From Candidatus Aldehydirespirator sp. (GTDB taxonomy: Bacteria; Actinomycetota; Acidimicrobiia; Acidimicrobiales; Aldehydirespiratoraceae): DNA of 64,000 nt. The translations under genes and the position numbers were made by a program. The notes under the pieces are model-generated. The model saw only the letters and a program-made list of their open reading frames with translations, was not told the DNA's origin and did no database searches. The stretch covers positions 1,350,669 through 1,414,668 of the forward strand of contig OZ244822.1 of the NCBI GenBank assembly GCA_965220345.1. Reading direction: 5' to 3'. Shown piece by piece: positions 44,601-56,853 of this stretch; within the stretch, counting starts at the first letter, position 1; each line of letters starts with the position of its first letter.

Positions 44601-46253
44601 GTGACCGATGCAATGGCATCAAGGTCTACATCGGACTGTAGCGGACTTATGAGTGAGAAACAACTACCGCTGCTATCTGACTTTGATTTGATATGTAGCA
44701 GGCTCCGGGATTTCTTCGCTCGCAACGGGACATGGCACCGTCGCCTCTGGGGAATCGGCACAGTTCTCAGTCTTCGGGAAGTGCTTGAGTACGCCGAAAG
44801 TTGCCTGACCGGACGATCACCCAACACTGAGGGACTCAAGTTCGTCGTTGACACCGCTAGTCGCGAAGTCAATCGCGATCCTGGTGTTGCACATCTGGCT
44901 GCCGAACTTAAGAGATTGCTCCAAGAACTCAAATTCAACTCTACTAAAGACCTGAGCAGGCACGCCCATGCTCGGCTTGAACAACTTGTCCAACGGGCCG
45001 ATGGCGACTACTGCAAGCGATGGTGCAACGCCGGTAACGATGCTCCTGTTGAGTTCACCAGTCGCGCAATCGCGTCGCATCTTCTTGATAGCGGTCTGAG
45101 CGGTGAACACCTTTATCGGTGGCTGCAAGCGACCGTCTCGTCGCTCTCAAATGTTGCTGAGCTTGCTGAGGAGGCAGCGGCAATGATGCATAGGACTCGC
45201 CTTCGGCAGTATGAGGTGTTTGTCCCCTGTTCTGCACCGTACGACAAACCCGTTAAGTCTGGCGGCTCTTTGAAGTGGCTTGACGGCAGCACCGCGGCCG
45301 AATGGATAAGGCAGCAGTCCTCCCACTCTGAGACACGACGTCACGGTGGCGGATTCCTCATATCGGTTCAGAGACGCGACCCTTGGTCAGCAGTGGATGC
45401 TGCTCAGGCGCTGATAGCACGCGTTGATGCCCGAGCTAAAGTCGCTCGACTGTTCGGTGAGAGCATCAGAATGAACGGCTGGGCTCTAGTGGCTGGCAGC
45501 AACCGCAATTACAGGATCAACTACCGACACAGTGAAGTAGAGATTGGCAGCCTTGACAGGCAGCGATCCATCTATCGCTTCGACTCTGGCCTGCCTATTG
45601 AGGTTGACGATGCGCTGGAACTCGCTTCCTACATGAAATTCCCCAACGTTGGAGCGGCCGTAATTGGAGCTTGGTCAGCCATTGAGGCGCTACTCATAAG
45701 GCCAGAGGAGCGAAGTAAGCATCATGCAGCCGACCGCTTGGCTGCCCTAGTTGCCTGCTCGCTGCCTCGTGCTGAACTGACACCCCTCGCCTACCGGCAC
45801 ATGGAGGCAGCCAACGATCAACTTGCAGCCGCTATTCGAGCATCCGACACGAACTATGCCAAGGTGCGACATGTAGAGAAGTACCTCAGATCTGGGGAAC
45901 GTCTCGCATTAACCGATGGCAGCGACATCGCCGCCCAAGACCGCATCGTCTCCATCCTTGATGACCCCGCCCGGAGCCTTGGAAGGATCAAGGATTACGT
46001 TGCAGAATCAATGCGTAGGCTCTACAACCAGCGAAATCAGATAGCACACTCGGGTTCACTGCGCTCTGATGCCCTAACGGCTACCGCAAGAACGTCGTTC
46101 GCTCTTGTCGGTGCTGGACTTGATCGTATTGTTCACGCCCAACTTCAGACCGACAATCCTTTAGAGCCACTGCAACTCGTGGCACGGGCGGAAACGGAAC
46201 TCAGTTTACTCGGAACGCCCGGTGGCCGTTCCCTGGCTTCACTGCTCGAATAG
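44601..46253 (+). CDS. large hypothetical protein with a C-terminal HEPN-type Rx4H motif
   Basis: MRRLYNQRNQIAHSGS (R-NQIA-H) in a helical C-terminal region. The N-terminal ~400 aa has no motif I recognise. An alternative start lies at 44652 (MSEKQLPLL). Confidence 0.7.
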   Translation: MTDAMASRSTSDCSGLMSEKQLPLLSDFDLICSRLRDFFARNGTWHRRLWGIGTVLSLREVLEYAESCLTGRSPNTEGLKFVVDTASREVNRDPGVAHLAAELKRLLQELKFNSTKDLSRHAHARLEQLVQRADGDYCKRWCNAGNDAPVEFTSRAIASHLLDSGLSGEHLYRWLQATVSSLSNVAELAEEAAAMMHRTRLRQYEVFVPCSAPYDKPVKSGGSLKWLDGSTAAEWIRQQSSHSETRRHGGGFLISVQRRDPWSAVDAAQALIARVDARAKVARLFGESIRMNGWALVAGSNRNYRINYRHSEVEIGSLDRQRSIYRFDSGLPIEVDDALELASYMKFPNVGAAVIGAWSAIEALLIRPEERSKHHAADRLAALVACSLPRAELTPLAYRHMEAANDQLAAAIRASDTNYAKVRHVEKYLRSGERLALTDGSDIAAQDRIVSILDDPARSLGRIKDYVAESMRRLYNQRNQIAHSGSLRSDALTATARTSFALVGAGLDRIVHAQLQTDNPLEPLQLVARAETELSLLGTPGGRSLASLLE

Positions 46254-46356: not shown

Positions 46357-46677
46357 TCAGTCGGCTAGCAGCGAACTTACGAGTCGGTTGAGGCTTACTC
46401 CGTTCTCGGCTGCACGCACTACTAGCTGGCGGTGGGTTTCTGGTGGCACACGAACAAGGAAACGTCCACTGTATGACCGCTCCGCCAACGGTGTCGGTAT
46501 TGGCTCGCCGTTCGCTTGCATGTCGACAACAACATCATGCACTAACTCACAGATGCCCGAGAAGGCCTCGTCACGGGCCGGTGCCAGCCAGCTCAGTGAT
46601 GGAAACTCCAAGCACAAGCCCACATGCTCACCATCCTCGGCTGACCAAGTCACTCGATACGTGTAATGATCACTCAC
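46357..46677 (-). CDS. hicB: HicB-family antitoxin
   Basis: YTYRVTWSAEDGEHVGLCLEFPSLSWLAPARDEA...GEPIPTP plus a C-terminal RHH-like GRFLVRVPPETHRQLVVRAAENGVSLNRLVSSLL. GTG start. Confidence 0.85.
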   Translation of the reverse strand: MSDHYTYRVTWSAEDGEHVGLCLEFPSLSWLAPARDEAFSGICELVHDVVVDMQANGEPIPTPLAERSYSGRFLVRVPPETHRQLVVRAAENGVSLNRLVSSLLAD

Positions 46678-46870
46678 TCAGTTCCTCCAACTTCTTAATG
46701 GCTTTGAGCACTTGGCGAACCTGATACGCCTTGGCCATGCCTTTGTGACTCTGGGTATTTACCCGAGAATCCCCTGTCCAGGGCATCCGCTAGACCCAGT
46801 GACTGCCTCGCGTCTGGCGTGGCTGCCCGAACATCGTGTCGCAGAGCTTGACAAGTTCAGAGAAACGCAT
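46670..46870 (-). pseudogene. hicA: HicA-like toxin gene interrupted by an in-frame TAG
   Basis: My translation: MRFSELVKLCDTMFGQPRQTRGSHWV*RMPWTGDSRVNTQSHKGMAKAYQVRQVLKAIKKLEELSE*. The TAG is at 46790-46792. The 3' end overlaps the hicB GTG by 8 nt. AAGGG lies upstream of the ATG. Confidence 0.65.
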
Positions 46871-47081
46871 CCCTTGGGGGTTGTTGTGAAATTCCTCACG
46901 CATTGCCTCCACATCCACACAATAATGATATCACTAAAGATACTAGCCGATATTGGGGGCAGGGCACAGACCTGTCAGTGAGCTAATTACGTAGGACGGT
47001 TTGGGTTCCGCTTGTTCGAATGGCGTGGAGAGCTGCGGTGCTTGAATCGCGAGTCAACGTTCTGCGGGCAGTCGTGTATCT

Positions 47082-48971
47082 GTGAGGCGCTGTCTGCGTG
47101 TTGGCGACTCGCTGCATCTCATTCCGCGGCGGCGCGCTGTCAGCGTTACCTACCAGCCCGGCCCCGACACTGAGATTGCATCCAACGAAACCCTAGATGA
47201 CATTAACGCTTTGGAGTTGCCTCGCTACCGTCTGATCGACTTTCTGTCAAAAAACGCTGATAAGCGCGGGGATCTGACAGTTGATGAGTCCGCAACTATC
47301 AAGATTTGGCGAGAGCAGCCTCATCGCAACCTGAATCTGGTTGGCTTTGCTCGAACATTGATCTATAAGCGACTTGGGTCTTCGGGGCCAGCGCTCATCG
47401 CCACTCTTCGCCGTCACCGGCTCCGAAATGACATCTTGCTTCTCGCCATGAGCCGTGGCTGGGACCTGCCAACGAGGAGTAGCTCCATTGCTGTGGAGCC
47501 CGTGGAGCCTTTAACTACCGATATTGATGACGGCGCAGGAGACGAAGAACTGCCTGTTGACAGGCTTGCGGGCGCTGAGGCCGCCTACGCCAAGCTCATT
47601 GACTCTGACAAAGTCAAACGCCTGCGACCTTTGCTGTTCACTGACGCACTTGCGGATTCCTTGCGTTCAGACAACCGGCTTATCGGTCGCATTCTCGCTC
47701 GTATCGGAGAATGGGATCAAAGAGATGACACCAAGCTTGATTCTTTAGCTGAGCTTGCTTGCGGTGACTACGGCTCAGAGAAAGTGGTGGTTTTTACGGA
47801 GTATGCCGACACGGCTTCCTACGTTGCTGCCGCACTAACCGAGCGTGGTGTTGATCAAGTTGCGATGGTCACCGGTTCCGATGCCAATCCCACTCTGGCT
47901 GCCCGCAGATTTTCGCCGTTATCCAATGCATCGCTAGGCGGGATGCCCAAGGGCTTTGAGCCGATACGAGTGCTGGTGTCAACTGATGTGCTATCGGAAG
48001 GTCAGAACCTTCAAGATGCTCGTGTTGTTGTCAACTATGACTTGCCGTGGGCAGTGGTGCGGATGGTGCAGCGCGCCGGACGTGTTGACCGTATCGGTCA
48101 GACAGCAGACGAGGTTGTAGTTGCCTCAATGCTCCCGCCTGGTGGCATTGAAGAGGTGATTGGCAACCACCGCCGGATTCGTGAGCGGCTAGATGCCAAC
48201 GCTGTTGTGTTTGGGGGAGGAGAACGTTTCTTCGGCACTGAAGACGAAGAGGCAGCGTTGCGGGATGCGATCTACAACGAAGATCCGCCCGACGACTCCG
48301 ACGAGGAAGTTGATGTGGTGTCTATGGCCTATGAGATATGGCGTTCGGCGAAGCGGGATAACCCCGATAAGGCCAAAGCTGCTGAGGCTTTACCTGACGT
48401 GGTCTACTCCACTCTTGCTTGTGGCAATGATGTGGGTGAGCCTGGAGTGCTTGTTCATATCCAGACCGAGGATGAGATTAATGCTTTCGCTGTCGCTCCA
48501 GCATCGGGCAGTCCGCCGAACGCTGTCGCAGCCCGTGAGGCTTTGCGTCTGGCTGCCTGCGAGCCTGACACACCTGTCACCAACACGCTTGAAGGACATC
48601 ATGATCTGGTGGCCACAGCATTCAATGGACCGCTTCGCTTTCCTGCGGCGGCTGCTCAAGGCCAGATGTCAGGCGTTCGGAGCCGATGCTGGAATCGACT
48701 ACGCGGGTTCCTCAACAGTTCTGACTTGAGGACTCAAGGCAACCTTCTGTGGGAGCCATCAAACCTTGATGCTGCGCTAGATGCCTTGCATCGTCGTCCC
48801 TTGTTGCGTAGCGCTCGCGAGGAGATCGCAACAGCTCTACAAGAGCACAGCGACGACAACCTTGCAGCCCTCGTTGCGAATCTTCATTCCCAAAATCAAC
48901 TGTGTGCGCCAGAATCAGCCGAGATCGCTCCGCCCCAGATCATCTGCTCAATGGGTCTAGTGCAGACCTAG
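47082..48971 (+). CDS. SNF2/SF2 helicase C-terminal-lobe protein lacking the N-terminal DEXH lobe (probable remnant)
   Basis: VVVFTEYADTASYV..., VLVSTDVLSEGQNLQDARVVVNYDLPWAVVRMVQRAGRVDRIGQ (motifs IV-VI). No Walker A/DEXH found anywhere upstream. The ORF starts at a GTG just after a stop. Confidence 0.7.
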   Translation: MRRCLRVGDSLHLIPRRRAVSVTYQPGPDTEIASNETLDDINALELPRYRLIDFLSKNADKRGDLTVDESATIKIWREQPHRNLNLVGFARTLIYKRLGSSGPALIATLRRHRLRNDILLLAMSRGWDLPTRSSSIAVEPVEPLTTDIDDGAGDEELPVDRLAGAEAAYAKLIDSDKVKRLRPLLFTDALADSLRSDNRLIGRILARIGEWDQRDDTKLDSLAELACGDYGSEKVVVFTEYADTASYVAAALTERGVDQVAMVTGSDANPTLAARRFSPLSNASLGGMPKGFEPIRVLVSTDVLSEGQNLQDARVVVNYDLPWAVVRMVQRAGRVDRIGQTADEVVVASMLPPGGIEEVIGNHRRIRERLDANAVVFGGGERFFGTEDEEAALRDAIYNEDPPDDSDEEVDVVSMAYEIWRSAKRDNPDKAKAAEALPDVVYSTLACGNDVGEPGVLVHIQTEDEINAFAVAPASGSPPNAVAAREALRLAACEPDTPVTNTLEGHHDLVATAFNGPLRFPAAAAQGQMSGVRSRCWNRLRGFLNSSDLRTQGNLLWEPSNLDAALDALHRRPLLRSAREEIATALQEHSDDNLAALVANLHSQNQLCAPESAEIAPPQIICSMGLVQT

Positions 48972-49073
48972 CCCGCTGACCCGATTCGTGACCCTCATGA
49001 TGCCAGCGCCCGATAAAGGCTCTACACTTATTCTGTAAGTGCAGATAGCACAGGGAAATGTGAGGAGTAGTTC

Positions 49074-49844
49074 ATGCAGACTGTCGAAATCCCACTAACC
49101 GAAATACGTGTGTCTCCCCAGAACACACGCCAAGATCTCCAGTCAGGCACTGAAGATACTAGCCTTGATGACTTAGCAGAATCTATACGCGAGTTAGGAT
49201 TGTTACAGCCGGTGACTGTCATGGAAGGTCATGGTGGTAAGTATGAACTGATAGCAGGTCAGCGCCGTTTTCTGGCCTGTCAGAAGGTTGGAATGAGCAC
49301 CATTACCGCCATTGTCAGAGATGATTTGGATGCTACAGATGCAACGGTGATTTCCTTGGTAGAGAATGTTCACCGCGCCGATATGAGTCCGATTGATAAG
49401 GCTCGAGCATACCAAGGCATCTACAACAAGTATGGTGATTATGAGCGCGTTGCGCGCGAGACTGGAGTTTCAGCGCCCACTATACGCCGCTATATGAGTC
49501 TACTTGACCTTGCACCTTCAATTCTAGCAAAGGCTTCAACTTCGGAAGGTCCGGCAGGCGTTGGAACTTTGTCGCGTTTAGCAAAAGAGTTCTTGCCCGA
49601 CGATCAAGAGTATGTTCTTTCCAAGATAGGTGGTTTCAATTCTAAGATTCAGGATGTCATAATAAGAGAGAGTCACGGTGATGTTCAGAGTATTGAACTC
49701 CTTGCAAGCCAGGCCAGAGAAGGCGCTTTCGACGTTCGGACATGCTCAGAGGGCTTGTGTTTCGAAATGTCAGAAAATCTAAAGGAGCAAGTTAGGCAAG
49801 TGTTGACTGGTAGCATCAAAGACCAAATCCAACAGTTGAGTTAA
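49074..49844 (+). CDS. ParB/Spo0J-like N-terminal-domain protein with HTH
   Basis: IRVSPQNTRQD, ESIRELGLLQPVTV, YELIAGQRRFLACQKVGMSTITAIV, LVENVHRADMSPIDKA, and HTH RVARETGVSAPTIRRYMSLL. GAGGAG RBS. AT-richer than the core genome. Confidence 0.85.
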   Translation: MQTVEIPLTEIRVSPQNTRQDLQSGTEDTSLDDLAESIRELGLLQPVTVMEGHGGKYELIAGQRRFLACQKVGMSTITAIVRDDLDATDATVISLVENVHRADMSPIDKARAYQGIYNKYGDYERVARETGVSAPTIRRYMSLLDLAPSILAKASTSEGPAGVGTLSRLAKEFLPDDQEYVLSKIGGFNSKIQDVIIRESHGDVQSIELLASQAREGAFDVRTCSEGLCFEMSENLKEQVRQVLTGSIKDQIQQLS

Positions 49845-49937
49845 AATAGTCAAAATATATGATTACTTTTATAAATATAGATATAATCTATCTAATTGTA
49901 CATTTATACGAGACTCGGATTTAGATAAGGAGTCACG

Positions 49938-51002
49938 ATGCTCAAGAGTATTCACATCAAGAATTATCGGAGCTTCAAAGACAGCTCAATACGCGACTTT
50001 GGGCGAATCAATATTTTCGCTGGGATGAATAATTCTGGTAAGACCACTCTACTAGAAGCACTGTTCCTTTGGTCTGCTGGTGGTAATCCTCAGTTTGTTT
50101 TCAGTCCTGTCGTGGTACGAGTCGACGTGCCTGTTGAGAGAGTGCCTATTTCGGGCCCGGTTCCTAGTCTAATGCCTGCTGCCGGGTACATGTGGAGTAC
50201 AGCTTGGCAGCCAATGTTCCATGATCTCGGATTAGAAACCCCGATCGAGATTGCTGGCACCCATGCAATTTCTGGAAAGCTAGAACTCAACATTTTGACA
50301 GAGCAGTCGAACGAGTTAGTGCTCCCACCCAATTCCAATACTAGTAATGGCTACCCTGACGATCTGATCTTTCGATACAGGAATGATGGCAAGAATGGCT
50401 TGCTTGAGATTAGGATCAAAACTTCAGGGAAGAGTTACGATATTAACACTAGCGGAGAGATAGAGGTTCCTTTTCAGGCTGTTTTTGTCGGGATGCATAA
50501 CATGGTTACCGATATCGAGCATCTTTCAATTCTCAAAAAAGAAAAAGGAGACGCTGGTGTCCTCAGGGCAATCCAAATGGTCGATCCATCTGTTAAAAGT
50601 ATAGAGATCGGAGTTCTCGGTAGTCAGGTCATAATTCTTGCTGATGTTGGTCTCGAAGATAGACTTCCCATGCAAACATTAGGTGCTGGCTCTCAACGCG
50701 TCGCAGCTCTAGCTACGAGCGCCGCAGCTGCTGCAGGGGGATTTTTGCTTATCGACGAGTTTGATGCTGGTCTGCATCATAGCAAGCTCGGAGATGTCTG
50801 GAAAGCGCTTCATGAGATAGCTGTTGACAAGAATGTGCAAGTGTTTGCCACCACTCACAGCTACGAGTGTGTCCGCACTGCTGCTGAGGTTCTGGGCGAT
50901 GAGGAACCCCACTTCTACCGGCTGCAGGATGGCACAGCAACGAGCTATCCGCCTGATGTGTTAGCAGATGCGATTGCAGCGCAGATGGAAGTACGCGGAT
51001 GA
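49938..51002 (+). CDS. AAA_21/ABC-type (SMC-like) ATPase
   Basis: MLKSIHIKNYRSFKD, Walker A GMNNSGKTTLLEAL, signature-like LGAGSQR, Walker B LLIDEFDAGLH, H-loop ATTHS. AAGGAG RBS behind a very AT-rich 93-bp spacer. Confidence 0.85.
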   Translation: MLKSIHIKNYRSFKDSSIRDFGRINIFAGMNNSGKTTLLEALFLWSAGGNPQFVFSPVVVRVDVPVERVPISGPVPSLMPAAGYMWSTAWQPMFHDLGLETPIEIAGTHAISGKLELNILTEQSNELVLPPNSNTSNGYPDDLIFRYRNDGKNGLLEIRIKTSGKSYDINTSGEIEVPFQAVFVGMHNMVTDIEHLSILKKEKGDAGVLRAIQMVDPSVKSIEIGVLGSQVIILADVGLEDRLPMQTLGAGSQRVAALATSAAAAAGGFLLIDEFDAGLHHSKLGDVWKALHEIAVDKNVQVFATTHSYECVRTAAEVLGDEEPHFYRLQDGTATSYPPDVLADAIAAQMEVRG

Positions 51003-51661
51003 CACAGGGCGGTATGTCAGTAGATCAAAACAGCCCGTCTGGCCCTGAGAGAATTCGCAAAACCAAGCTTTTACTCGTTGAAGGTAAAGAAGATCTCAGA
51101 GTTTTCAAAGAGCTTTGTGCCTACTGGGGCCTTCAGGATATCCAGATCATGCAGATGGAGGGAATCACGAACCTGCATTCACGCCTTAAAGTTGTAGTGA
51201 GAGATCCAGGGTTTCGTAACCTACGGACCCTAGCGATAGCGCGTGATGCCGATTCTAACGCTCAGAGAGCTTTTCAGTCGGTGCTGAATGCGCTCAGCAA
51301 GTGCCCGCCACTCAGGACAAATTTACCATCCAAAGCGGGAGTTCACGGTGGGAATCGTCCTGCCACGACTGTATTCATCGCCCCTGATAACGAGAGCCCA
51401 GGCAACCTAGAGACTATGCTCAACAGGACCAAAGCTGGAGACCCAATTGATGCTTGCATTGAGGAATTCTTCGCTTGTCTGGGACGAGAGGCAGAGTTCA
51501 ACTTAACTGGAAGACACCGCGATAAAGCCCGAGCTTATGCAAGGATCGCGGCCTCATCCAATCCTGCACGTTCTGTCGGCCATTCCGTGCGCTCCCATGA
51601 AGTCTGGAATCTCAATCACGAGTCGCTGTCACCCGTCAAGGCATTCCTGTCAGGGTTGTGA
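50999..51661 (+). CDS. small TOPRIM-like protein (DUF3226/DUF4276/DUF4435-type)
   Basis: LLLVEGKEDLRVF (TOPRIM Glu) and LAIARDADSN (DxD). ATGA overlap with the ATPase gene. Confidence 0.7.
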   Translation: MTQGGMSVDQNSPSGPERIRKTKLLLVEGKEDLRVFKELCAYWGLQDIQIMQMEGITNLHSRLKVVVRDPGFRNLRTLAIARDADSNAQRAFQSVLNALSKCPPLRTNLPSKAGVHGGNRPATTVFIAPDNESPGNLETMLNRTKAGDPIDACIEEFFACLGREAEFNLTGRHRDKARAYARIAASSNPARSVGHSVRSHEVWNLNHESLSPVKAFLSGL

Positions 51662-51747
51662 TCAATTGCATCTCACCCGCTGACTTGAGACCCAACCCAT
51701 CGGCGTTGCTTTCCCACAAACTCCCACCTCAAACGTGCAGCACCCAG

Positions 51748-52455
51748 TTAAGCCGCGTGCCTCTGCGGTAGAAGTAAGATCTCGCCGTCTTTGGCATCTG
51801 CAACAGGCAGCGACGGCATGTCAGGGTGATGCCACTTGCGGACTTCTGGCGTATTGCCTTTGCGTTTGTTGCAGTAAGTGTGGGATGCTTGGAGATTGTC
51901 GAGTTTGTGCAGACGACTCTTGTAGTGGGTGCCCGGTTCGGCTTTGTCGCCTCATCTGATATCGAATACAGCAAATATTTCTGGCACAATGTGTTCGATC
52001 TGAGCACCCTTGAGTTTCATCTCGCCTGCACACAGACCACAGCGACCGCCGTCGCGTCGATAGATATAGGAGAGAATGCGCCGTCGGTGAGTGTCATCCC
52101 AGCGGCCGGATGCGTCTGGTTCATCAGATTCCAAGTACCAGCGCCACCCCTTATCAACAGTTCGGGCAGACCTGCTGAGGAGACCTTCAGGCTTTTCTGC
52201 TAGGTTTGAGTCCCGCCTTTCTTTGGTGCTTTGCTGAATCCCTGCGCCAGAACTAGTAGACGGATTGTCACTCAGCGTCAGAGCTAGCGCGGTTGCCTCG
52301 TATGGCAGAATTTGTCGACATTTCGGGAACTCCGAGCATCCCCAGAACTGCTTGCCAGCATTGTCACCCCTCCGGGCGGTTCGCAGAACCATGGGCTTGT
52401 GGCATCTTGGACACTTTGGGATCGGCTCCGTAACTGGCACTGACTCTCCGTTCAT
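51748..52455 (-). pseudogene. topoisomerase-type C4 zinc-finger + HNH endonuclease gene with an in-frame TGA
   Basis: CPRCHKPMVLR...FWGCSEFPKC (zf-C4_Topoisom-like), then CGLCAGEMKLKGAQIEHIVPEIFAVFDIR-TGA(51952-51954)-GDKAEPGTHYKSRLHKLDNLQASHTYCNKRKGNT. The HNH motif is split by the stop, by my codon-by-codon translation. Confidence 0.75.
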
Positions 52456-52700
52456 AAGTGCGCCGCAACTTGATCATCAGCTTGGATCTTCAACTGTAGG
52501 GACTTTTGTGCAGACATCGCCCCTAGCTCCTATCCGATCTCAGATCCAGTGCGTGAGATTCTCAAGAGTTTGTCCATCGCAGCATGCTGCGGCATCGCCC
52601 TGACCACTGTGAAGCTAGAAGAGTAGAGGTAGCATAAGCCTTGCCGGGGTTGTCAGGGACGGCATCTTGTTCGGCCTTGGCAACAGGAAGAGAGTCAGGA

Positions 52701-53174
52701 ATGAGTATCAGGCTCTACACCGACGACGAACTCGCCAAGCTGCGCTCAATGCCTAAGCGGGTAACCAACCCTAGAGCCCGATGGGTGAAGAAGACCGGCC
52801 ATCGGCAACGAAACTTCCAGGCCATAGCGCAAGAGGACCACTCGAAGCATTTTGCGGTCTATCAGCGACAGAGTGAGAGAGACCTTGAGGACTTTTCTTG
52901 CGGCATCGCCTACCTCCCGCAGAGTGGGAGCCGTCTGACTCTTGCCCGCTACAACGGCTCAAGTCACGTTCACGGCAATATCGCTTACCAGCCGCATATC
53001 CATATCACCACGGAGAAGGCCATTGCCGCTGGCAGGAAGCCCGAGTCCGAGGCTGAGGAGACCGACCTTTACACGACTCTTGACGGTGCCTTTAGGTGCC
53101 TGATCCAAGACTTCCAGTTGGAGGGTATTGCGGTTCCGCCAGCGGGTGAACGGAAGCTTTTTGATGACTCTTGA
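52701..53174 (+). CDS. hypothetical protein (His-rich core motif)
   Basis: MSIRLYTDDELAKLRSMPKRV...LARYNGSSHVHGNIAYQPHIHITTEKAI. No family recognised. The ORF is open from 52641. The 3' end overlaps the next gene. Confidence 0.55.
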   Translation: MSIRLYTDDELAKLRSMPKRVTNPRARWVKKTGHRQRNFQAIAQEDHSKHFAVYQRQSERDLEDFSCGIAYLPQSGSRLTLARYNGSSHVHGNIAYQPHIHITTEKAIAAGRKPESEAEETDLYTTLDGAFRCLIQDFQLEGIAVPPAGERKLFDDS

Positions 53175-53952
53175 TACAGGCGCTTTGCGGGCACTTTTGT
53201 GTGAGCGCCTCTGCGAAGACGTGCAGGTTGATGAGCGTCCCAACGGCTCTTTGATGTTGCGGACCCATTTCGCCTTCCCAGACGGAGACGGATACCCCTT
53301 CCATCTGACTTCGGCACCATCGGGCGGCCTTCGATTGTCGGATCACGGCCACACACTCATGCACATCAGCTACGATCACGATGTCGACTTATTCCTGGCT
53401 GGCACGCGGGGCTTGCTGCTCGAGCGCATCGTTACTGAGACTGGTATCTGCTACGAAGACGAAGATGGAGCCTTCTACGTCGACACTTCTCACGAAGGGC
53501 TACCTGAGGCTGTTTTTCGTTTCGGTCAGGCGCTGACACGAATCTACGACTTGACTTTGCTGTCGCGCTCGAATGTCGGCTCTACTTTTTACGACGACTT
53601 AGCCGACTGCCTCTCGGCACAGATAGACGAATCCAAGATGCAGCGCGACTACGAACCAGAGGTACCCAACGCTGCGGCTTATCTGGTGGACTACAGGATC
53701 GAAGGTAAGAGTGGTGTCCCGCTGTTCGTATACGGTGTGCCTAACCGCGACAAAGCTCGGCTAACGACGATCATGCTAGGCTATTTTCACCGGCAGCATC
53801 TCGCTTTTGAGTCCATCATCGTCTTTGCTGACCAGGCTGAGATACCGAGAGTTGATCTTGCGAGGCTCTCCGATGTGGGTGGTGACATGATCTCATCTTT
53901 GGAGTCCACCGAGGATCTCAACCGAAAACTCCTAAAGCGTGTCGCCGCATGA
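53164..53952 (+). CDS. DUF1828/DUF1829-like protein
   Basis: HFAFPDGDGYPFHLTSAPSGGLRLSDHGHTLMHI resembles my recollection of the DUF1828 N-terminal module. ATG 53164 overlaps the upstream stop by 11 nt. Confidence 0.6.
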   Translation: MTLDTGALRALLCERLCEDVQVDERPNGSLMLRTHFAFPDGDGYPFHLTSAPSGGLRLSDHGHTLMHISYDHDVDLFLAGTRGLLLERIVTETGICYEDEDGAFYVDTSHEGLPEAVFRFGQALTRIYDLTLLSRSNVGSTFYDDLADCLSAQIDESKMQRDYEPEVPNAAAYLVDYRIEGKSGVPLFVYGVPNRDKARLTTIMLGYFHRQHLAFESIIVFADQAEIPRVDLARLSDVGGDMISSLESTEDLNRKLLKRVAA

Positions 53953-55527: not shown

Positions 55528-56853
55528 TTGGACTACATACCTCGCCTTGTGGACTCGCAGCTCGAGCGTGCTTGTCGGCTTCATCCTGTTGTGCTGGTTA
55601 CAGGCGCAAGAGGGGTCGGCAAGACCACCACTGCGCTGCGAGCCGCCACCGCAAGCGCTTTTCTTGATGATGCTGCCACTCGCATCGTGTTCCATGACGA
55701 CCCCGAAGCGACTCTCGCTAAGTATGACGAGCCATTGCTGGTGGATGAGTGGCAGTTAGTGCCTGAGGTAGTTCGAGCGATAAAGCGCACGGTCGACCGT
55801 GATCGCAGGCCAGGCCGGTTCATCCTTACTGGCTCTCCTGACCCAAAGGGCCGCTCAGAGTTTCAGTCGTTGACCGGCAGGGCAGGGGTTGTTCGCCTTA
55901 ACCCGATGAATATGCGGGAACTAGCTGGGAGTAGGCTCGGCGTTCTTCAGGCGCAGGGCCTTCAGCAACTCACTCCGATAACCGTCAGTGAGCAGGGCAT
56001 ACAGGTAGAGGATCCGCAGCGAACTTCGATAGTTGCAGGATTGCTAGCGGGGAATCCGCCAGCGGCATCTCCAAAGCAGGCACTCAATATTTTTGGGTAC
56101 CTTGACTTGGCAGCAGTCGGGGGCTTCCCGGCGTGCGCGCCAGAAGGCTCGGTGGCACGATCTCAGGAATGGTGCAGCGACTATCTGAGCGTTCTGTTGC
56201 GGCGGGATCTGCCTTTGTTCGGCACTCGGCGTTCAGCCTCGCATTTTCGTAGATATCTAGAAACCACTGCCTTTCACACAGCTCGTTCTCCCGAGGACGG
56301 AAGCTTGCGTACAGCTGCCGGGGTCAACCCTAGAACCCATCGTGACTATCGGCACATCCTGCTTGATATGGAGGTGACCGTTGAGGTTCCCGCTTTCAGC
56401 AGCGAGGATGTGCCGAGCCTCGCTAAATCTCCCAAAATGCTGTTCAGCGATTCGGGACTGTTGATCGCAGCGATGAATGTGCCGCTAGCCCGTTTGAAGC
56501 TAAACGGAGACCTCTACGGAAGGGTCTTGGAGACTTTCGTGATTAACCAACTCCGATGCGAACTAGAGGCTTTGGGGATGAGAGACGCGCTGAGTCATCT
56601 CCGCACCCACAAGGGTGTCCATGAGATTGATGCCGTGATTGAGACTCCAGAAGGTGGGATTATCGCGATTGAGATCAAATCGGCTAACCGTCACCGGCTT
56701 GGCGATGCCAAGCACATTGAGTGGCTCGCCGAGAAAGTGGGGGACAGGTTCATGCTGGGTTTGGTGCTTACCACCGGTGCCCACATCAGCAAGATCCGCA
56801 GTGACAAGAGCGACAAGATCTGGTCTGCACCCATCAGCGTGCTCTGGCACTAA
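55528..56853 (+). CDS. AAA+ ATPase with DUF4143 C-terminal module
   Basis: MDYIPRLVD...VVLVTGARGVGKTT (Walker A), LLVDEWQ (Walker B), and C-terminal HEIDAVIETPEGGIIAIEIKSA. Confidence 0.85.
   Translation: MDYIPRLVDSQLERACRLHPVVLVTGARGVGKTTTALRAATASAFLDDAATRIVFHDDPEATLAKYDEPLLVDEWQLVPEVVRAIKRTVDRDRRPGRFILTGSPDPKGRSEFQSLTGRAGVVRLNPMNMRELAGSRLGVLQAQGLQQLTPITVSEQGIQVEDPQRTSIVAGLLAGNPPAASPKQALNIFGYLDLAAVGGFPACAPEGSVARSQEWCSDYLSVLLRRDLPLFGTRRSASHFRRYLETTAFHTARSPEDGSLRTAAGVNPRTHRDYRHILLDMEVTVEVPAFSSEDVPSLAKSPKMLFSDSGLLIAAMNVPLARLKLNGDLYGRVLETFVINQLRCELEALGMRDALSHLRTHKGVHEIDAVIETPEGGIIAIEIKSANRHRLGDAKHIEWLAEKVGDRFMLGLVLTTGAHISKIRSDKSDKIWSAPISVLWH

What the first reader, a model, noticed from the sequence alone, without database searches (positions are those of the whole stretch)
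49074..51661. Intact low-GC cassette: ParB-like protein + AAA_21-type ATPase + small TOPRIM-like protein (PARIS/OLD-like module with an unusual ParB neighbour)
These three co-oriented genes sit in the AT-richest part of island (ii) and appear to be the only uninterrupted multi-gene unit there. The 354-aa ATPase has Walker A GMNNSGKT, Walker B LLIDEFDAGLH and H-loop TTHS. It overlaps by ATGA with a 220-aa protein carrying a TOPRIM-like Glu (LLLVEGKED) and a DxD (ARDADS). An ABC-type ATPase coupled to a separate TOPRIM nuclease is the architecture of PARIS (AriA/AriB), and OLD/Gabija nucleases fuse the same two modules. Here the TOPRIM partner is shorter than I remember AriB to be. Directly upstream, behind its own GAGGAG RBS, lies a canonical-looking ParB N-domain/HTH protein (GQRRF, ENVHRAD), with no ParA anywhere nearby. 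A 93-bp very AT-rich spacer with an AAGGAG RBS separates parB-like from the ATPase, so there may be two transcription units. I do not know of a described ParB + ATPase + TOPRIM triad.
Basis: partly seen in the sequence, partly recalled or inferred. Interest (0 to 1): 0.75.

Follow-up and report, generated by a model that had tools for sequence, protein, structure and literature searches.

The report
ATPase–TOPRIM defence pair beside orphan ParB
The three genes are real, but they are not one system. A self-contained ATPase-plus-nuclease cassette, already listed as an untested phage-defence candidate (PADLOC PDC-M38), happens in this lineage to sit next to a solitary ParB-type DNA-binding gene and a broken helicase gene.

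Summary
Three intact, co-oriented genes lie at exactly the stated coordinates in a low-GC patch, with the stated motifs, ribosome-binding sites and ATGA overlap.

The 354-aa ABC-type ATPase and the 220-aa protein form an ATPase + OLD-type TOPRIM nuclease pair. The small protein is a full-length Pfam DUF3226. A confident AF2 model best matches the OLD C-terminal regions. The conserved residues E28, D32, D83-x-D85, E138 and K176 follow the order of the OLD two-metal site.

It is not PARIS: neither the DUF4435 nor the AriB profile matches. It matches both components of PADLOC's untested candidate PDC-M38.

The ParB "triad" does not hold. ParB is adjacent only in three near-identical metagenome contigs (≥75% identity), always behind the same PLD-SNF2 helicase, which is 5'-truncated in the window. 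Pairs at ≤70% identity lack it: five ParB-less settings, plus Klebsiella 4.2-kb plasmids whose only cargo is the pair. A conserved 30-nt leader marks the cassette edge downstream of ParB.

The ParB belongs to a solitary Bacteria-and-Archaea clade. Only 1 of 79 loci has such a pair within 10 kb.

Verdict: a new member of a known candidate kind. The orphan ParB clade is the more curious by-product.

The parts
47067..48971 (+). Context, not part of the pair. This is the 5'-truncated remnant of a PLD + SNF2 helicase. Only the Helicase_C half and the C-terminal region remain.
   Evidence: tblastn of the intact 1176-aa L001 protein aligns only residues 543-1176, at 95% aa identity. Pfam finds Helicase_C only. 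Full-length relatives on plasmids are followed by a type IIG-like REase/MTase.
49062..49067 (+). GAGGAG ribosome-binding site of the ParB-like gene.
   Evidence: Read directly from the sequence, 6 nt before the ATG at 49074.
49074..49844 (+). Orphan ParB/Noc/KorB-type protein: a ParB_N CTPase-fold domain, an HTH, and a conserved C-terminal region with C-x4-C. It is an independent passenger gene, not a conserved partner of the pair.
   Evidence: Family and fold: Pfam ParB_N 1.2e-19 and HTH_ParB 1.2e-5; TIGR00180 1.3e-32. The clade profile matches Spo0J 1.7e-30, Noc 3e-29 and KorB 8e-14 in the PDB. The AF2 model (pLDDT 81) matches MxParB, Noc and KorB by Foldseek at about 1e-11.

Motifs: GQRR[FY] and EN[VL][HQ]RA are present in 36 of 36 clade members; a ParA-binding motif is present in 0 of 36.

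Context: solitary in 79 genomic loci. dN/dS is 0.07.
49845..49937 (+). 93-bp AT-rich spacer (GC 0.25). It holds one promoter-like match starting in the ParB 3' end (49836-49863, TTGAGT-16-TATGAT).
   Evidence: The promoter match is not above chance. The window carries about 25 bp of extra AT-rich sequence relative to L001 and L098.
49910..49937 (+). Conserved leader of the cassette (GAGACTCGGATTTAGATAAGGAGTCACG), including the AAGGAG ribosome-binding site at 49927-49932. It marks the 5' edge of the two-gene module.
   Evidence: In alignment A6 of 8 loci, this stretch (consensus GAATCnGA...AGnCAAGGAG) is conserved whether or not ParB lies upstream. Sequence further upstream is unrelated.
49938..51002 (+). 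ABC-type ATPase (PDC-M38A; AbiLi-like). It is the proposed sensor and regulator subunit.
   Evidence: Pfam AAA_15 1.9e-22 and AAA_21 9e-20. PADLOC AbiLi 1.1e-45, PDC-M38A 2.4e-45, AriA 2.5e-22. Walker A is at 50022-50045, the signature at 50679-50699, Walker B at 50745-50765 and the H-loop at 50850-50861. It lies directly upstream of a DUF3226 gene in every locus examined.
50999..51661 (+). DUF3226 protein, an OLD-type TOPRIM nuclease (PDC-M38B). It is the proposed effector. Its start overlaps the ATPase stop (ATGA).
   Evidence: Family and fold: Pfam DUF3226 2.5e-31, covering residues 23-218; PADLOC PDC-M38B 2.4e-17. The AF2 model has pLDDT 89.9 and pTM 0.85. The Foldseek top five are OLD C-terminal regions 6njx, 6njv, 6njw and 6nk8. 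OLD-like_TOPRIM hits occur in 27 of 33 members.

Conserved residues: E28, D83, E138, C153, C160 and K176 are invariant across the 33-member family alignment. D32 and D85 are invariant among the 15 closest relatives. The E motif is at 51068-51094, DxD at 51239-51256, GNLE at 51398-51415 and K176 within 51518-51535.

Best explanation
The region juxtaposes three independent modules inside a decaying defence island of an Acidimicrobiaceae-like chromosome.

1. Genes 2 and 3 form an autonomous, translationally coupled cassette: an ABC ATPase plus an OLD-type TOPRIM nuclease (DUF3226). It is PADLOC candidate PDC-M38. By analogy with PARIS, P2 Old and Gabija, I infer the following. The ATPase binds the nuclease and holds it inactive. 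It senses a phage or foreign-DNA cue. ATP-dependent release or activation then lets the two-metal TOPRIM site cut nucleic acid (tRNA as in AriB/Old, or DNA), which aborts infection. On a mini-plasmid the same module would act as an addiction or defence cargo.

2. The ParB-like gene is a solitary, horizontally mobile ParB/Noc/KorB-type DNA-binding protein with an intact nucleotide-binding pocket, presumably a CTP switch. It landed, or was recombined, between the helicase and the cassette in one lineage. The cassette does not need it.

3. The upstream ORF is the dead 3' half of a PLD-SNF2 helicase. Intact relatives of this helicase work with a large type IIG-like methyltransferase.

Shown computationally: gene structure, folds, catalytic motifs, autonomy of the pair, and lack of ParB linkage. 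Inferred only: complex formation, the trigger, the substrate and the defence phenotype.
For: Pair identity:
- Both PDC-M38 profiles match, and DUF3226 matches over its full length.
- OLD TOPRIM regions are the best structural matches.
- E28, D32 (E+4), D83-x-D85, E138 and K176 follow the order of the OLD metal-A, metal-B and catalytic-Lys residues described in PMC7049728.
- The ABC motifs are intact.

Autonomy of the pair:
- ATPase + DUF3226, with overlapping or abutting genes, occur without ParB in L003-6 (70% id, same chromosomal site as the window), L093/94, L095/96, L097 and L007.
- The pair is the only cargo of 4.2-kb ColE1 plasmids in Klebsiella.
- The conserved leader ends about 30 nt before the ATPase ATG.
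- The DUF3226 family is large: 7,235 cluster representatives.

ParB independence:
- The clade spans Bacteria and Archaea (79 loci).
- The ATPase/DUF3226 pair lies within 10 kb in 1 of 79 loci, and the helicase in 1 of 79.
- The 96 immediate neighbours fall into 133 Pfam families, none seen more than 3 times.
- There is no defence enrichment among neighbours.
- ParA neighbours occur only next to outgroup ParBs.
- Within the block, dS against L001 is mosaic: 0.32, 1.00, 0.30 and 0.80.

Helicase: it is truncated, and its normal partner is an MTase.

Defence context: the pair abuts HmaB/HmaC in L093 and a type I RM system in L097. PDC-S01 and a PDC-M24B-like gene lie nearby in the window.
Against: - ParB-ATPase-DUF3226 adjacency, co-orientation and short spacers are retained in the window and three metagenome contigs (window, L001, L002, L098).
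- ParB is under purifying selection there, with dN/dS 0.07.
- ParB and the ATPase share the lowest GC in the island.
- A lineage-specific co-option, for example ParB acting as a KorB-like repressor of the cassette promoter in the AT-rich spacer, is therefore not excluded.
- Only six independent ParB-less settings of the pair were sampled (five chromosomal or metagenomic, plus the Klebsiella mini-plasmid).
- No PDC-M38 or DUF3226 protein has been tested experimentally. A related split ATPase+TOPRIM candidate, HEC-01, gave no protection in E. coli.
- TM-scores to OLD are modest (0.36-0.49). I assigned the catalytic residues by motif order, not by superposition.
Confidence: 0.72

Rival explanations
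1. A true three-gene system in this lineage. ParB acts as a CTP-dependent DNA clamp. Either it represses the cassette promoter, as KorB does, or it serves as a DNA-bound sensor that hands foreign DNA to the ATPase-TOPRIM pair.
For: - Co-oriented adjacency is conserved in the window, L001, L002 and L098.
- ParB is intact, with dN/dS 0.07.
- Its closest structural relatives include KorB, a CTP-dependent repressor.
- The AT-rich spacer holds a promoter-like site.
- ParB and the ATPase share low GC.
Against: - All pairs at ≤70% identity lack ParB, as do the Klebsiella plasmids.
- Only 1 of 79 ParB loci has a pair nearby, and there it is 6 kb away, across unrelated genes.
- The cassette's conserved leader excludes ParB.
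- ParB's dS (1.0) differs threefold from that of the flanking genes (0.3), which indicates separate histories.
- No shared palindrome was found near ParB genes.
Confidence: 0.12
2. ParB and the pair are guest cassettes embedded in a helicase-methyltransferase defence system (Hma-like, or PLD-SNF2 plus a type IIG-like MTase). The window keeps only the wrecked helicase and its guests. The association is with the host system, not between the guests. This is compatible with the best explanation and adds a history to it.
For: - Helicase relatives on pSYSX and a Picosynechococcus plasmid carry a small hypothetical gene plus a VapC toxin gene embedded between helicase and MTase. In Rathayibacter and L021 the two genes are contiguous.
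- The pair directly follows HmaB and HmaC in L093, and abuts HsdM/HsdS in L097.
- PDC candidates were defined by such embedding.
- Hma systems frequently embed ABC ATPase + TOPRIM cassettes.
- MADS contains an accessory mad3/mad4 pair, and 7 of 33 DUF3226 members weakly hit mad4.
Against: - There is no methyltransferase or remnant downstream in the window, L001 (6 kb of sequence after the helicase) or L098.
- In L001 the next gene is an opposite-strand KAP NTPase (PDC-S20).
- The helicase scores far below every curated family cut-off.
Confidence: 0.35
3. A remnant of an integrated plasmid or other mobile element. ParB is the leftover of a partition locus, and the ATPase-TOPRIM pair is an addiction module.
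For: - The pair is the only cargo of Klebsiella ColE1 mini-plasmids.
- ParB proteins are typical of plasmids.
- The island has low GC.
- Phage_integrase or Resolvase genes lie next to a few ParB-clade genes, 3 and 2 of the 96 neighbours.
Against: - The window has no tRNA. No ParA, replication or integrase gene appeared among the island proteins scanned, and no canonical parS was found.
- The ParB clade has no ParA-binding motif (0 of 36).
- The clade is absent from 72,556 plasmids (best 31% id), from catalogued phages, and from IMG/VR.
- The same chromosomal site holds the pair alone in related genomes.
Confidence: 0.05

Closest known systems
PADLOC phage defence candidate PDC-M38 (Payne et al., bioRxiv 10.1101/2024.01.29.577857)
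   Same: Both proteins match its two profile sets: A at 2.4e-45 and B at 2.4e-17. The order is the same, the genes are adjacent and co-oriented, and the pair associates with helicase, methylase or RM loci.
   Different: Nothing structural differs. The candidate has never been tested and no paper text discusses it. The window copy comes from an uncultured Acidimicrobiaceae-like lineage.
PARIS (AriA ABC ATPase + AriB DUF4435 TOPRIM tRNase)
   Same: A split ABC ATPase plus an OLD-type TOPRIM effector on adjacent genes, in a defence-island or mobile context. PARIS is the likely working model: the ATPase cages the nuclease until triggered.
   Different: - AriA is about 53-55 kDa and AriB about 35 kDa. 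The window proteins are 354 and 220 aa.
- The window protein matches neither DUF4435 nor AriB, and only 3 of 33 family members weakly hit AriB.
- The ATPase fits other profiles 23 orders of magnitude better than AriA.
- The PARIS structure ranks only 14th in the fold search, at E 0.046.
OLD family nucleases (P2 Old, Ts/Bp/Xcc OLD, GajA)
   Same: The same ATPase class, and the best structural match for the TOPRIM domain. The metal-A, metal-B and Lys pattern is conserved.
   Different: OLD proteins are single polypeptides, whereas here the two modules are separate genes. TM-scores are only 0.36-0.49. The two invariant cysteines (C153, C160) are a feature of the DUF3226 alignment that I did not compare with OLD proteins.
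AbiL (AbiLi/AbiLii), HEC-01 and MADS mad3/mad4
   Same: All are two-gene ATPase + TOPRIM-like modules. The AbiLi profile matches the ATPase over its full length at 1.1e-45, mad3 matches at 9.8e-16, and mad4 and HEC-01B are weakly hit by some DUF3226 members.
   Different: No AbiLii match appears at E ≤ 1 for any of the 33 members. The mad and HEC matches are much weaker than those to PDC-M38. MADS needs six further genes.
Orphan ParB proteins; Noc and KorB CTP-dependent clamps (bioRxiv 10.1101/2025.10.10.680097)
   Same: The ParB is TIGR00180-positive, keeps Box II and Box III, has an HTH, lacks both a ParA partner and a ParA-binding motif, and shows signs of horizontal transfer.
   Different: This clade was not found on catalogued plasmids or phages. 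It has its own conserved C-terminal region (C-x4-C) and spans Bacteria and Archaea at 50-65% identity. Its DNA site, nucleotide preference and function are unknown.

Membership tests
PDC-M38 (PADLOC candidate) | Component A profile (ABC ATPase) | tested here: met
   PDLC04611 matches at 2.4e-45, and four further PDC-M38A profiles also match.
PDC-M38 (PADLOC candidate) | Component B profile (DUF3226) | tested here: met
   PDLC04624 matches at 2.4e-17 and PDLC04623 at 2e-8. All 33 of 33 family members match. Pfam DUF3226 matches at 2.5e-31.
PDC-M38 (PADLOC candidate) | A and B adjacent on the same strand | tested here: met
   The genes overlap by 4 bp at 50999-51002. The same arrangement is seen in all related loci.
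PDC-M38 (PADLOC candidate) | Anti-phage activity | not testable with these tools
   The authors list it as untested. No paper text mentions PDC-M38 or DUF3226.
PARIS | AriB-type effector (DUF4435 TOPRIM, about 35 kDa) | tested here: not met
   The window protein has no DUF4435 hit and no AriB hit at E ≤ 0.01. Only 3 of 33 relatives hit AriB weakly, the best at 3.4e-4. The protein is 220 aa.
PARIS | AriA-type ATPase as the best match | tested here: not met
   AriA scores 2.5e-22, against 1.1e-45 for AbiLi and 2.4e-45 for PDC-M38A. The window ATPase is 354 aa, whereas AriA is about 53-55 kDa.
PARIS | Triggering by anti-restriction proteins, with tRNA cleavage | not testable with these tools
   This needs experiments.
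OLD family nucleases | ABC ATPase with Walker A, Walker B, signature motif and H-loop | tested here: met
   All four motifs were located. AAA_15 and AAA_21 match. The N-terminus resembles Rad50, SMC and retron Eco8 OLD.
OLD family nucleases | TOPRIM fold with two-metal site residues and a catalytic Lys/Arg | tested here: met
   The Foldseek top five are OLD C-terminal regions, with probability 0.97-0.99. PF20469 hits occur in 27 of 33 members. E28, D32, D83-x-D85, E138 and K176 are conserved, compared with E400, E404, D455, D457, E508 and K562 of Bp OLD. The correspondence is by motif order; no superposition was done.
OLD family nucleases | ATPase and TOPRIM on one polypeptide (classes 1-3) | tested here: not met
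   They are two genes with a stop and restart (ATGA).
AbiL | AbiLi ATPase | tested here: met
   PDLC02336 matches at 1.1e-45, residues 1-324 against profile positions 1-305 of 340.
AbiL | AbiLii partner | tested here: not met
   No AbiLii hit appears at E ≤ 1 for any of the 33 DUF3226 members.
ParABS partition system | ParB N-terminal CTPase fold plus HTH | tested here: met
   Box II GQRRF and Box III ENVHRAD are present.
ParABS partition system | Adjacent ParA, and a ParA-binding peptide in ParB | tested here: not met
   No ParA lies beside the gene in the window. No locus with a ParB at ≥45% identity to the window's has an adjacent ParA. ParA lies directly upstream only of more distant ParBs at 33-44% identity. 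The motif [LIFV]G[KR]G[LIFV] is present in 0 of 36 members.
ParABS partition system | parS centromere site | tested here: inconclusive
   There is no canonical parS above chance in the window and no palindrome shared across 58 loci within ±400 bp. A non-canonical or distant site cannot be excluded.
Hma / helicase-methylase host system | Intact helicase with a cognate methyltransferase | tested here: not met
   The helicase is 5'-truncated. No MTase homologue is present in the window, L001 or L098. The HmaA profile matches only at 1.6e-21, over part of the protein.

The most novel reading that the evidence does not exclude
The 256-aa ParB belongs to an uncharacterised clade of solitary ParB/Noc/KorB-like nucleotide-switch proteins that moves as a single gene between Bacteria and Archaea.

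Evidence for the clade's oddity:
- Members share 50-65% identity.
- The gene is AT-richer than its flanks in 38 of 44 loci.
- It has no ParA, no conserved partner, and no match on catalogued plasmids or phages.

In the L001/window lineage it may have been co-opted as a DNA-bound regulator or sensor for the adjacent ATPase-TOPRIM cassette. That would be a ParB-controlled abortive-infection module.
Probability: 0.12. Interest if true: 0.65.

Novelty: new member of a known kind. Interest (0 to 1): 0.3.

Why it matters
The practical value is a clean definition. This is a compact, intact and strongly conserved example of the DUF3226 (PDC-M38) ATPase-TOPRIM cassette, with defined edges (49910-51661) and predicted catalytic residues.

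The family has thousands of members and even rides alone on Klebsiella mini-plasmids, yet there is no experimental work on it. Testing it would show whether the PARIS-style "ATPase cages a TOPRIM nuclease" logic extends to a much smaller, unrelated effector family.

The analysis also removes a tempting but false lead, the ParB triad. It flags a separate open question: what does a cross-domain, single-gene, compositionally foreign orphan ParB do?

Tried and rejected
1. PARIS or AbiL membership: rejected, because the AriB/DUF4435 and AbiLii profiles do not match.
2. ParB as partner of the PLD-SNF2 helicase: rejected. Plasmid and Caldilineaceae relatives of the helicase pair with a type IIG-like MTase instead. 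Only 1 of 79 ParB loci has the helicase, on the opposite strand and separated from it by a malic-enzyme gene.
3. The 252-aa gene upstream of the pair in L095 as a diverged ParB: rejected (hhalign probability 0.1).
4. parS-like site search: no canonical parS in the window and no palindrome shared among 58 loci.
5. Defence-island enrichment around ParB-clade genes: not seen.
6. The metagenome scan with the DUF3226 alignment gave one short locus. Alignments A1 and A5 were too divergent for pattern-based locus retrieval. The census of pair contexts therefore rests on exact-protein look-ups and plasmid records.
7. The PDB sequence search for DUF3226 found nothing meaningful.
8. The window DUF3226 protein itself has no tblastn match on plasmids. 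A family representative was needed instead.
9. There is no tRNA or integrase to define island ends.
10. The promoter and terminator scans are not above chance.

Full report
OBSERVATION

All three are on the + strand. The last two overlap by ATGA. The GAGGAG and AAGGAG ribosome-binding sites and the 93-bp spacer (GC 0.25) are present. GC falls to 0.45-0.49 here, against about 0.58 elsewhere. All quoted motifs were located. The genes are clearly real. Pfam gives ParB_N 1.2e-19 with HTH_ParB, AAA_15 1.9e-22 with AAA_21 9e-20, and full-length DUF3226 2.5e-31. dN/dS against relatives is 0.07-0.17.

THE ATPase + SMALL PROTEIN PAIR

PADLOC profiles assign both proteins to one candidate system, PDC-M38: component A at 2.4e-45 and component B at 2.4e-17. 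The ATPase also matches AbiLi (1.1e-45), and matches AriA, GajA, Old, mad3 and HEC-01A much more weakly.

I tested the TOPRIM claim in three ways.

- Structure. An AF2 model built on a 33-sequence alignment is confident (pLDDT 89.9, pTM 0.85). Its five best PDB matches are all TOPRIM-containing C-terminal regions of Xanthomonas and Burkholderia OLD nucleases, with probability 0.97-0.99, E of about 2-4e-3 and TM 0.36-0.49. A PARIS chain ranks 14th.
- Sequence profiles. 27 of 33 family members give sub-threshold hits to Pfam OLD-like_TOPRIM, the best at 2.4e-5.
- Catalytic residues. E28, D83, E138 and K176 are invariant across the family alignment, and D32 and D85 are invariant among the closest relatives. 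Together they follow the order of the OLD metal-A (E, DxD), metal-B (acidic residue at E+4, x-E) and catalytic Lys residues defined in PMC7049728.

It is not PARIS. The window protein does not match DUF4435 or AriB, and only 3 of 33 relatives touch AriB weakly. It is not AbiL in the strict sense either, because no member matches AbiLii.

The family is large. An exhaustive profile search finds 7,235 cluster representatives, 1,466 of them at E ≤ 1e-30. Yet no held paper mentions DUF3226 or PDC-M38 in its text. PDC-M38 appears only in a supplementary table of Payne et al. (bioRxiv 10.1101/2024.01.29.577857). There it is one of 145 untested candidates, recognised because the cassettes sit embedded in BREX, DISARM or type I RM loci.

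IS ParB PART OF IT?

From the pair's side, ParB is adjacent in the window and in three metagenome contigs whose proteins are 75-100% identical to the window's: L001, L002 (cut at its end) and L098. In L001 and L098, whose sequence reaches far enough upstream, it sits behind the same PLD + SNF2 helicase. Every more distant pair lacks ParB:

- L003-L006, Acidimicrobiaceae MAGs at 70% identity. Here the pair sits at the very chromosomal site seen in the window, just after the Na+/H+ exchanger gene.
- L093/94, where the pair follows HmaB and HmaC.
- L095/96, where the upstream 252-aa gene is not a ParB (hhalign probability 0.1).
- L097, next to HsdM/HsdS.
- L007, lying among aromatic amino-acid biosynthesis genes.

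In 118 Klebsiella records a homologous ATPase + DUF3226 pair occurs. The ATPase matches at BLASTP 2e-30 and the DUF3226 protein at hhalign probability 99.3. In the 4,167-bp ColE1-type plasmid examined (NZ_CP079604.1), the pair is the only cargo besides Rop and an HTH gene.

An alignment of the regions upstream of the ATPase start shows a conserved leader of about 30 nt, GAATCnGA...AGnCAAGGAG. It is present with or without ParB, and the sequence upstream of it is unrelated. The cassette edge therefore lies at about 49910, downstream of ParB.

From ParB's side, the protein is a bona fide ParB/Noc/KorB-type fold. The clade profile matches Spo0J at 1.7e-30, Noc at 3e-29 and KorB at 8e-14 in the PDB, and Foldseek gives about 1e-11. 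Box II (GQRRF) and Box III (ENVHRAD) are intact, and there is no ParA-binding peptide in any of 36 members.

Its clade is strongly conserved, with mean column identity 59%, and it is taxonomically surprising. The 79 loci retrieved from GTDB species genomes include Dehalococcoidia, Caldilineaceae, Acidobacteriota and Alphaproteobacteria. They also include Nitrosopumilus, Methanoperedens, Bathyarchaeota and Heimdallarchaeota, at 50-64% identity.

- Only 1 of the 79 loci has an ATPase + DUF3226 pair within 10 kb, and 1 of 79 has the PLD-SNF2 helicase. In both cases unrelated genes lie between.
- De novo clustering of flanking ORFs finds no partner in more than 7 loci.
- The 96 immediate neighbours fall into 133 Pfam families, none seen more than three times.
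- PADLOC hits among those neighbours are single-locus events.
- ParA lies directly upstream only of outgroup ParBs at 33-44% identity.

Within the window block, synonymous divergence from L001 is mosaic: helicase 0.32, ParB 1.00, ATPase 0.30 and DUF3226 0.80. Adjacent genes therefore have different histories.

THE UPSTREAM ORF AND THE ISLAND

Window 47066-51672 matches L001 2386-6967 at 87% nt identity. The 629-aa ORF covers only residues 543-1176 of L001's intact 1176-aa PLD-SNF2 protein, so it is a 5'-truncated remnant.

Full-length relatives of the helicase, at about 40% identity, occur on Microbacterium, Rhodococcus, Rathayibacter, Synechocystis (pSYSX) and Picosynechococcus plasmids. There they are followed by a large type IIG-like REase/MTase. 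In some the two genes are contiguous. In others a small hypothetical gene plus a VapC toxin gene is embedded in between. In one the MTase is cut by an IS element. L021 shows the same helicase-MTase pairing. No MTase remnant exists in the window, L001 or L098.

The island also holds several other elements:

- a split hicA beside an intact hicB;
- a Zn-ribbon ORF with only a marginal HNH-type match;
- a DUF1828 / PDC-M24B-like gene;
- an intact PDC-S01 gene.

There is no tRNA. The picture is a variable, partly decayed defence island at a site that in related genomes holds the pair alone.

MECHANISM (INFERRED)

By analogy with PARIS (PMC11464382), P2 Old and Gabija, the ABC ATPase probably binds the DUF3226 nuclease and holds it in check. 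It would release or activate the nuclease on sensing an infection cue. The two-metal TOPRIM site would then cut tRNA or DNA, giving abortive infection, or plasmid addiction when the module is on a mini-plasmid. Translational coupling, strict co-occurrence, intact ATPase motifs and conserved catalytic residues all support a two-subunit enzyme. The trigger, the substrate and the phenotype are unknown. A related split candidate, HEC-01, showed no protection in E. coli.

ParB most likely acts on its own as a nucleotide-gated DNA clamp of unknown target. A lineage-specific role as a KorB-like regulator of the cassette cannot be excluded. I give that about 12%.

THE ORPHAN ParB CLADE (BY-PRODUCT)

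Orphan ParBs are recognised as common and often MGE-borne (bioRxiv 10.1101/2025.10.10.680097). This clade, however, is absent from 72,556 plasmids (best 31% identity), from catalogued phages (≤37%) and from IMG/VR (≤39%). Its genes are nevertheless AT-richer than their flanks in 38 of 44 loci. The median difference is -6.7 GC points, against +1.9 for control genes (Mann-Whitney p about 1e-14). How a single gene without recombinase spreads across domains, and what it does, is unexplained.

VERDICT

The pair is a new member of a known but untested candidate kind (PDC-M38, an OLD/PARIS-like split ATPase-TOPRIM). The ParB triad is a lineage-specific juxtaposition, not a system. Interest 0.3.

Noticed in passing
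window 49074-49844; loci L013-L083: The orphan ParB clade (about 256-270 aa, with a conserved C-terminal C-x4-C) occurs in both Bacteria and Archaea at 50-65% identity. It has no ParA and no conserved neighbour, and it is absent from catalogued plasmids, phages and IMG/VR. Its GC is below that of its flanks in 38 of 44 loci (median -6.7 points, p about 1e-14).
   Followed up: yes
window 47067-48971; L001 761-4291; L119-L122: The upstream ORF is the 3' half of a 1176-aa PLD+SNF2 helicase. Intact relatives on actinobacterial and cyanobacterial plasmids are followed by a large type IIG-like REase/MTase, sometimes with a small hypothetical gene plus a VapC toxin gene embedded in between. This two-gene helicase-MTase module reaches no curated NCBIfam cut-off.
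   Followed up: partly
window 47066-51672 vs L001 2386-6967: Synonymous divergence is mosaic across adjacent genes: dS is 0.32 for the helicase, 1.00 for ParB, 0.30 for the ATPase and 0.80 for DUF3226. This implies recombinational shuffling of alleles inside the block.
   Followed up: partly
window 49910-49937; alignment A6: A conserved leader of about 30 nt (GAATCnGA...AGnCAAGGAG) lies immediately upstream of the ATPase start in all eight loci aligned, regardless of what lies further upstream. It may be a regulatory or translation-initiation element of the cassette.
   Followed up: partly
L123 (NZ_CP079604.1, 4167 bp) and 117 other Klebsiella plasmid records: A homologous ATPase + DUF3226 pair occurs in 118 Klebsiella plasmid records, most of them about 4.2 kb. 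In the ColE1-type plasmid examined, the pair (with overlapping genes) is the only cargo besides Rop and an HTH gene. This is a ready-made experimental model for the family.
   Followed up: partly
window 46357-46918 (- strand): hicB (46357-46677) is intact. The hicA-like reading frame upstream of it is split into two short ORFs (46670-46786 and 46790-46918), so it is probably a frameshifted toxin gene.
   Followed up: no
window 44601-46253 (+): A 550-aa ORF lies at the island edge, directly after the Na+/H+ exchanger/Usp gene. It has no PADLOC or NCBIfam match and only a sub-threshold HIRAN hit (5e-4). It is absent from the syntenic L003 genome.
   Followed up: no
window 51952-52455 (-), 52641-53174 (+), 53128-53952 (+), 55528-56853 (+): The downstream island genes are:
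- a Top1-type Zn-ribbon ORF with only a marginal HNH-type match;
- a weak DUF6978 hit;
- a DUF1828 protein resembling PDC-M24B;
- an intact PDC-S01 ATPase (3.5e-92).

Together they indicate a defence island of candidate systems.
   Followed up: no
I did not examine it.
   Followed up: no
L048, L059, L062, L065, L066, L071, L078: An alphaproteobacterial subgroup of the ParB clade (40-50% identity) has a conserved, divergently transcribed 308-335-aa neighbour with no Pfam hit. This is the only recurrent partner seen anywhere in the clade.
   Followed up: partly
L097 7793-12705; L093 215-5893: In L097 the pair abuts hsdM/hsdS, which are followed by a second ATPase (AAA_21) + RloB pair. In L093 it directly follows HmaB and HmaC. 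Both fit the embedded or adjacent-to-methylase-systems theme.
   Followed up: partly
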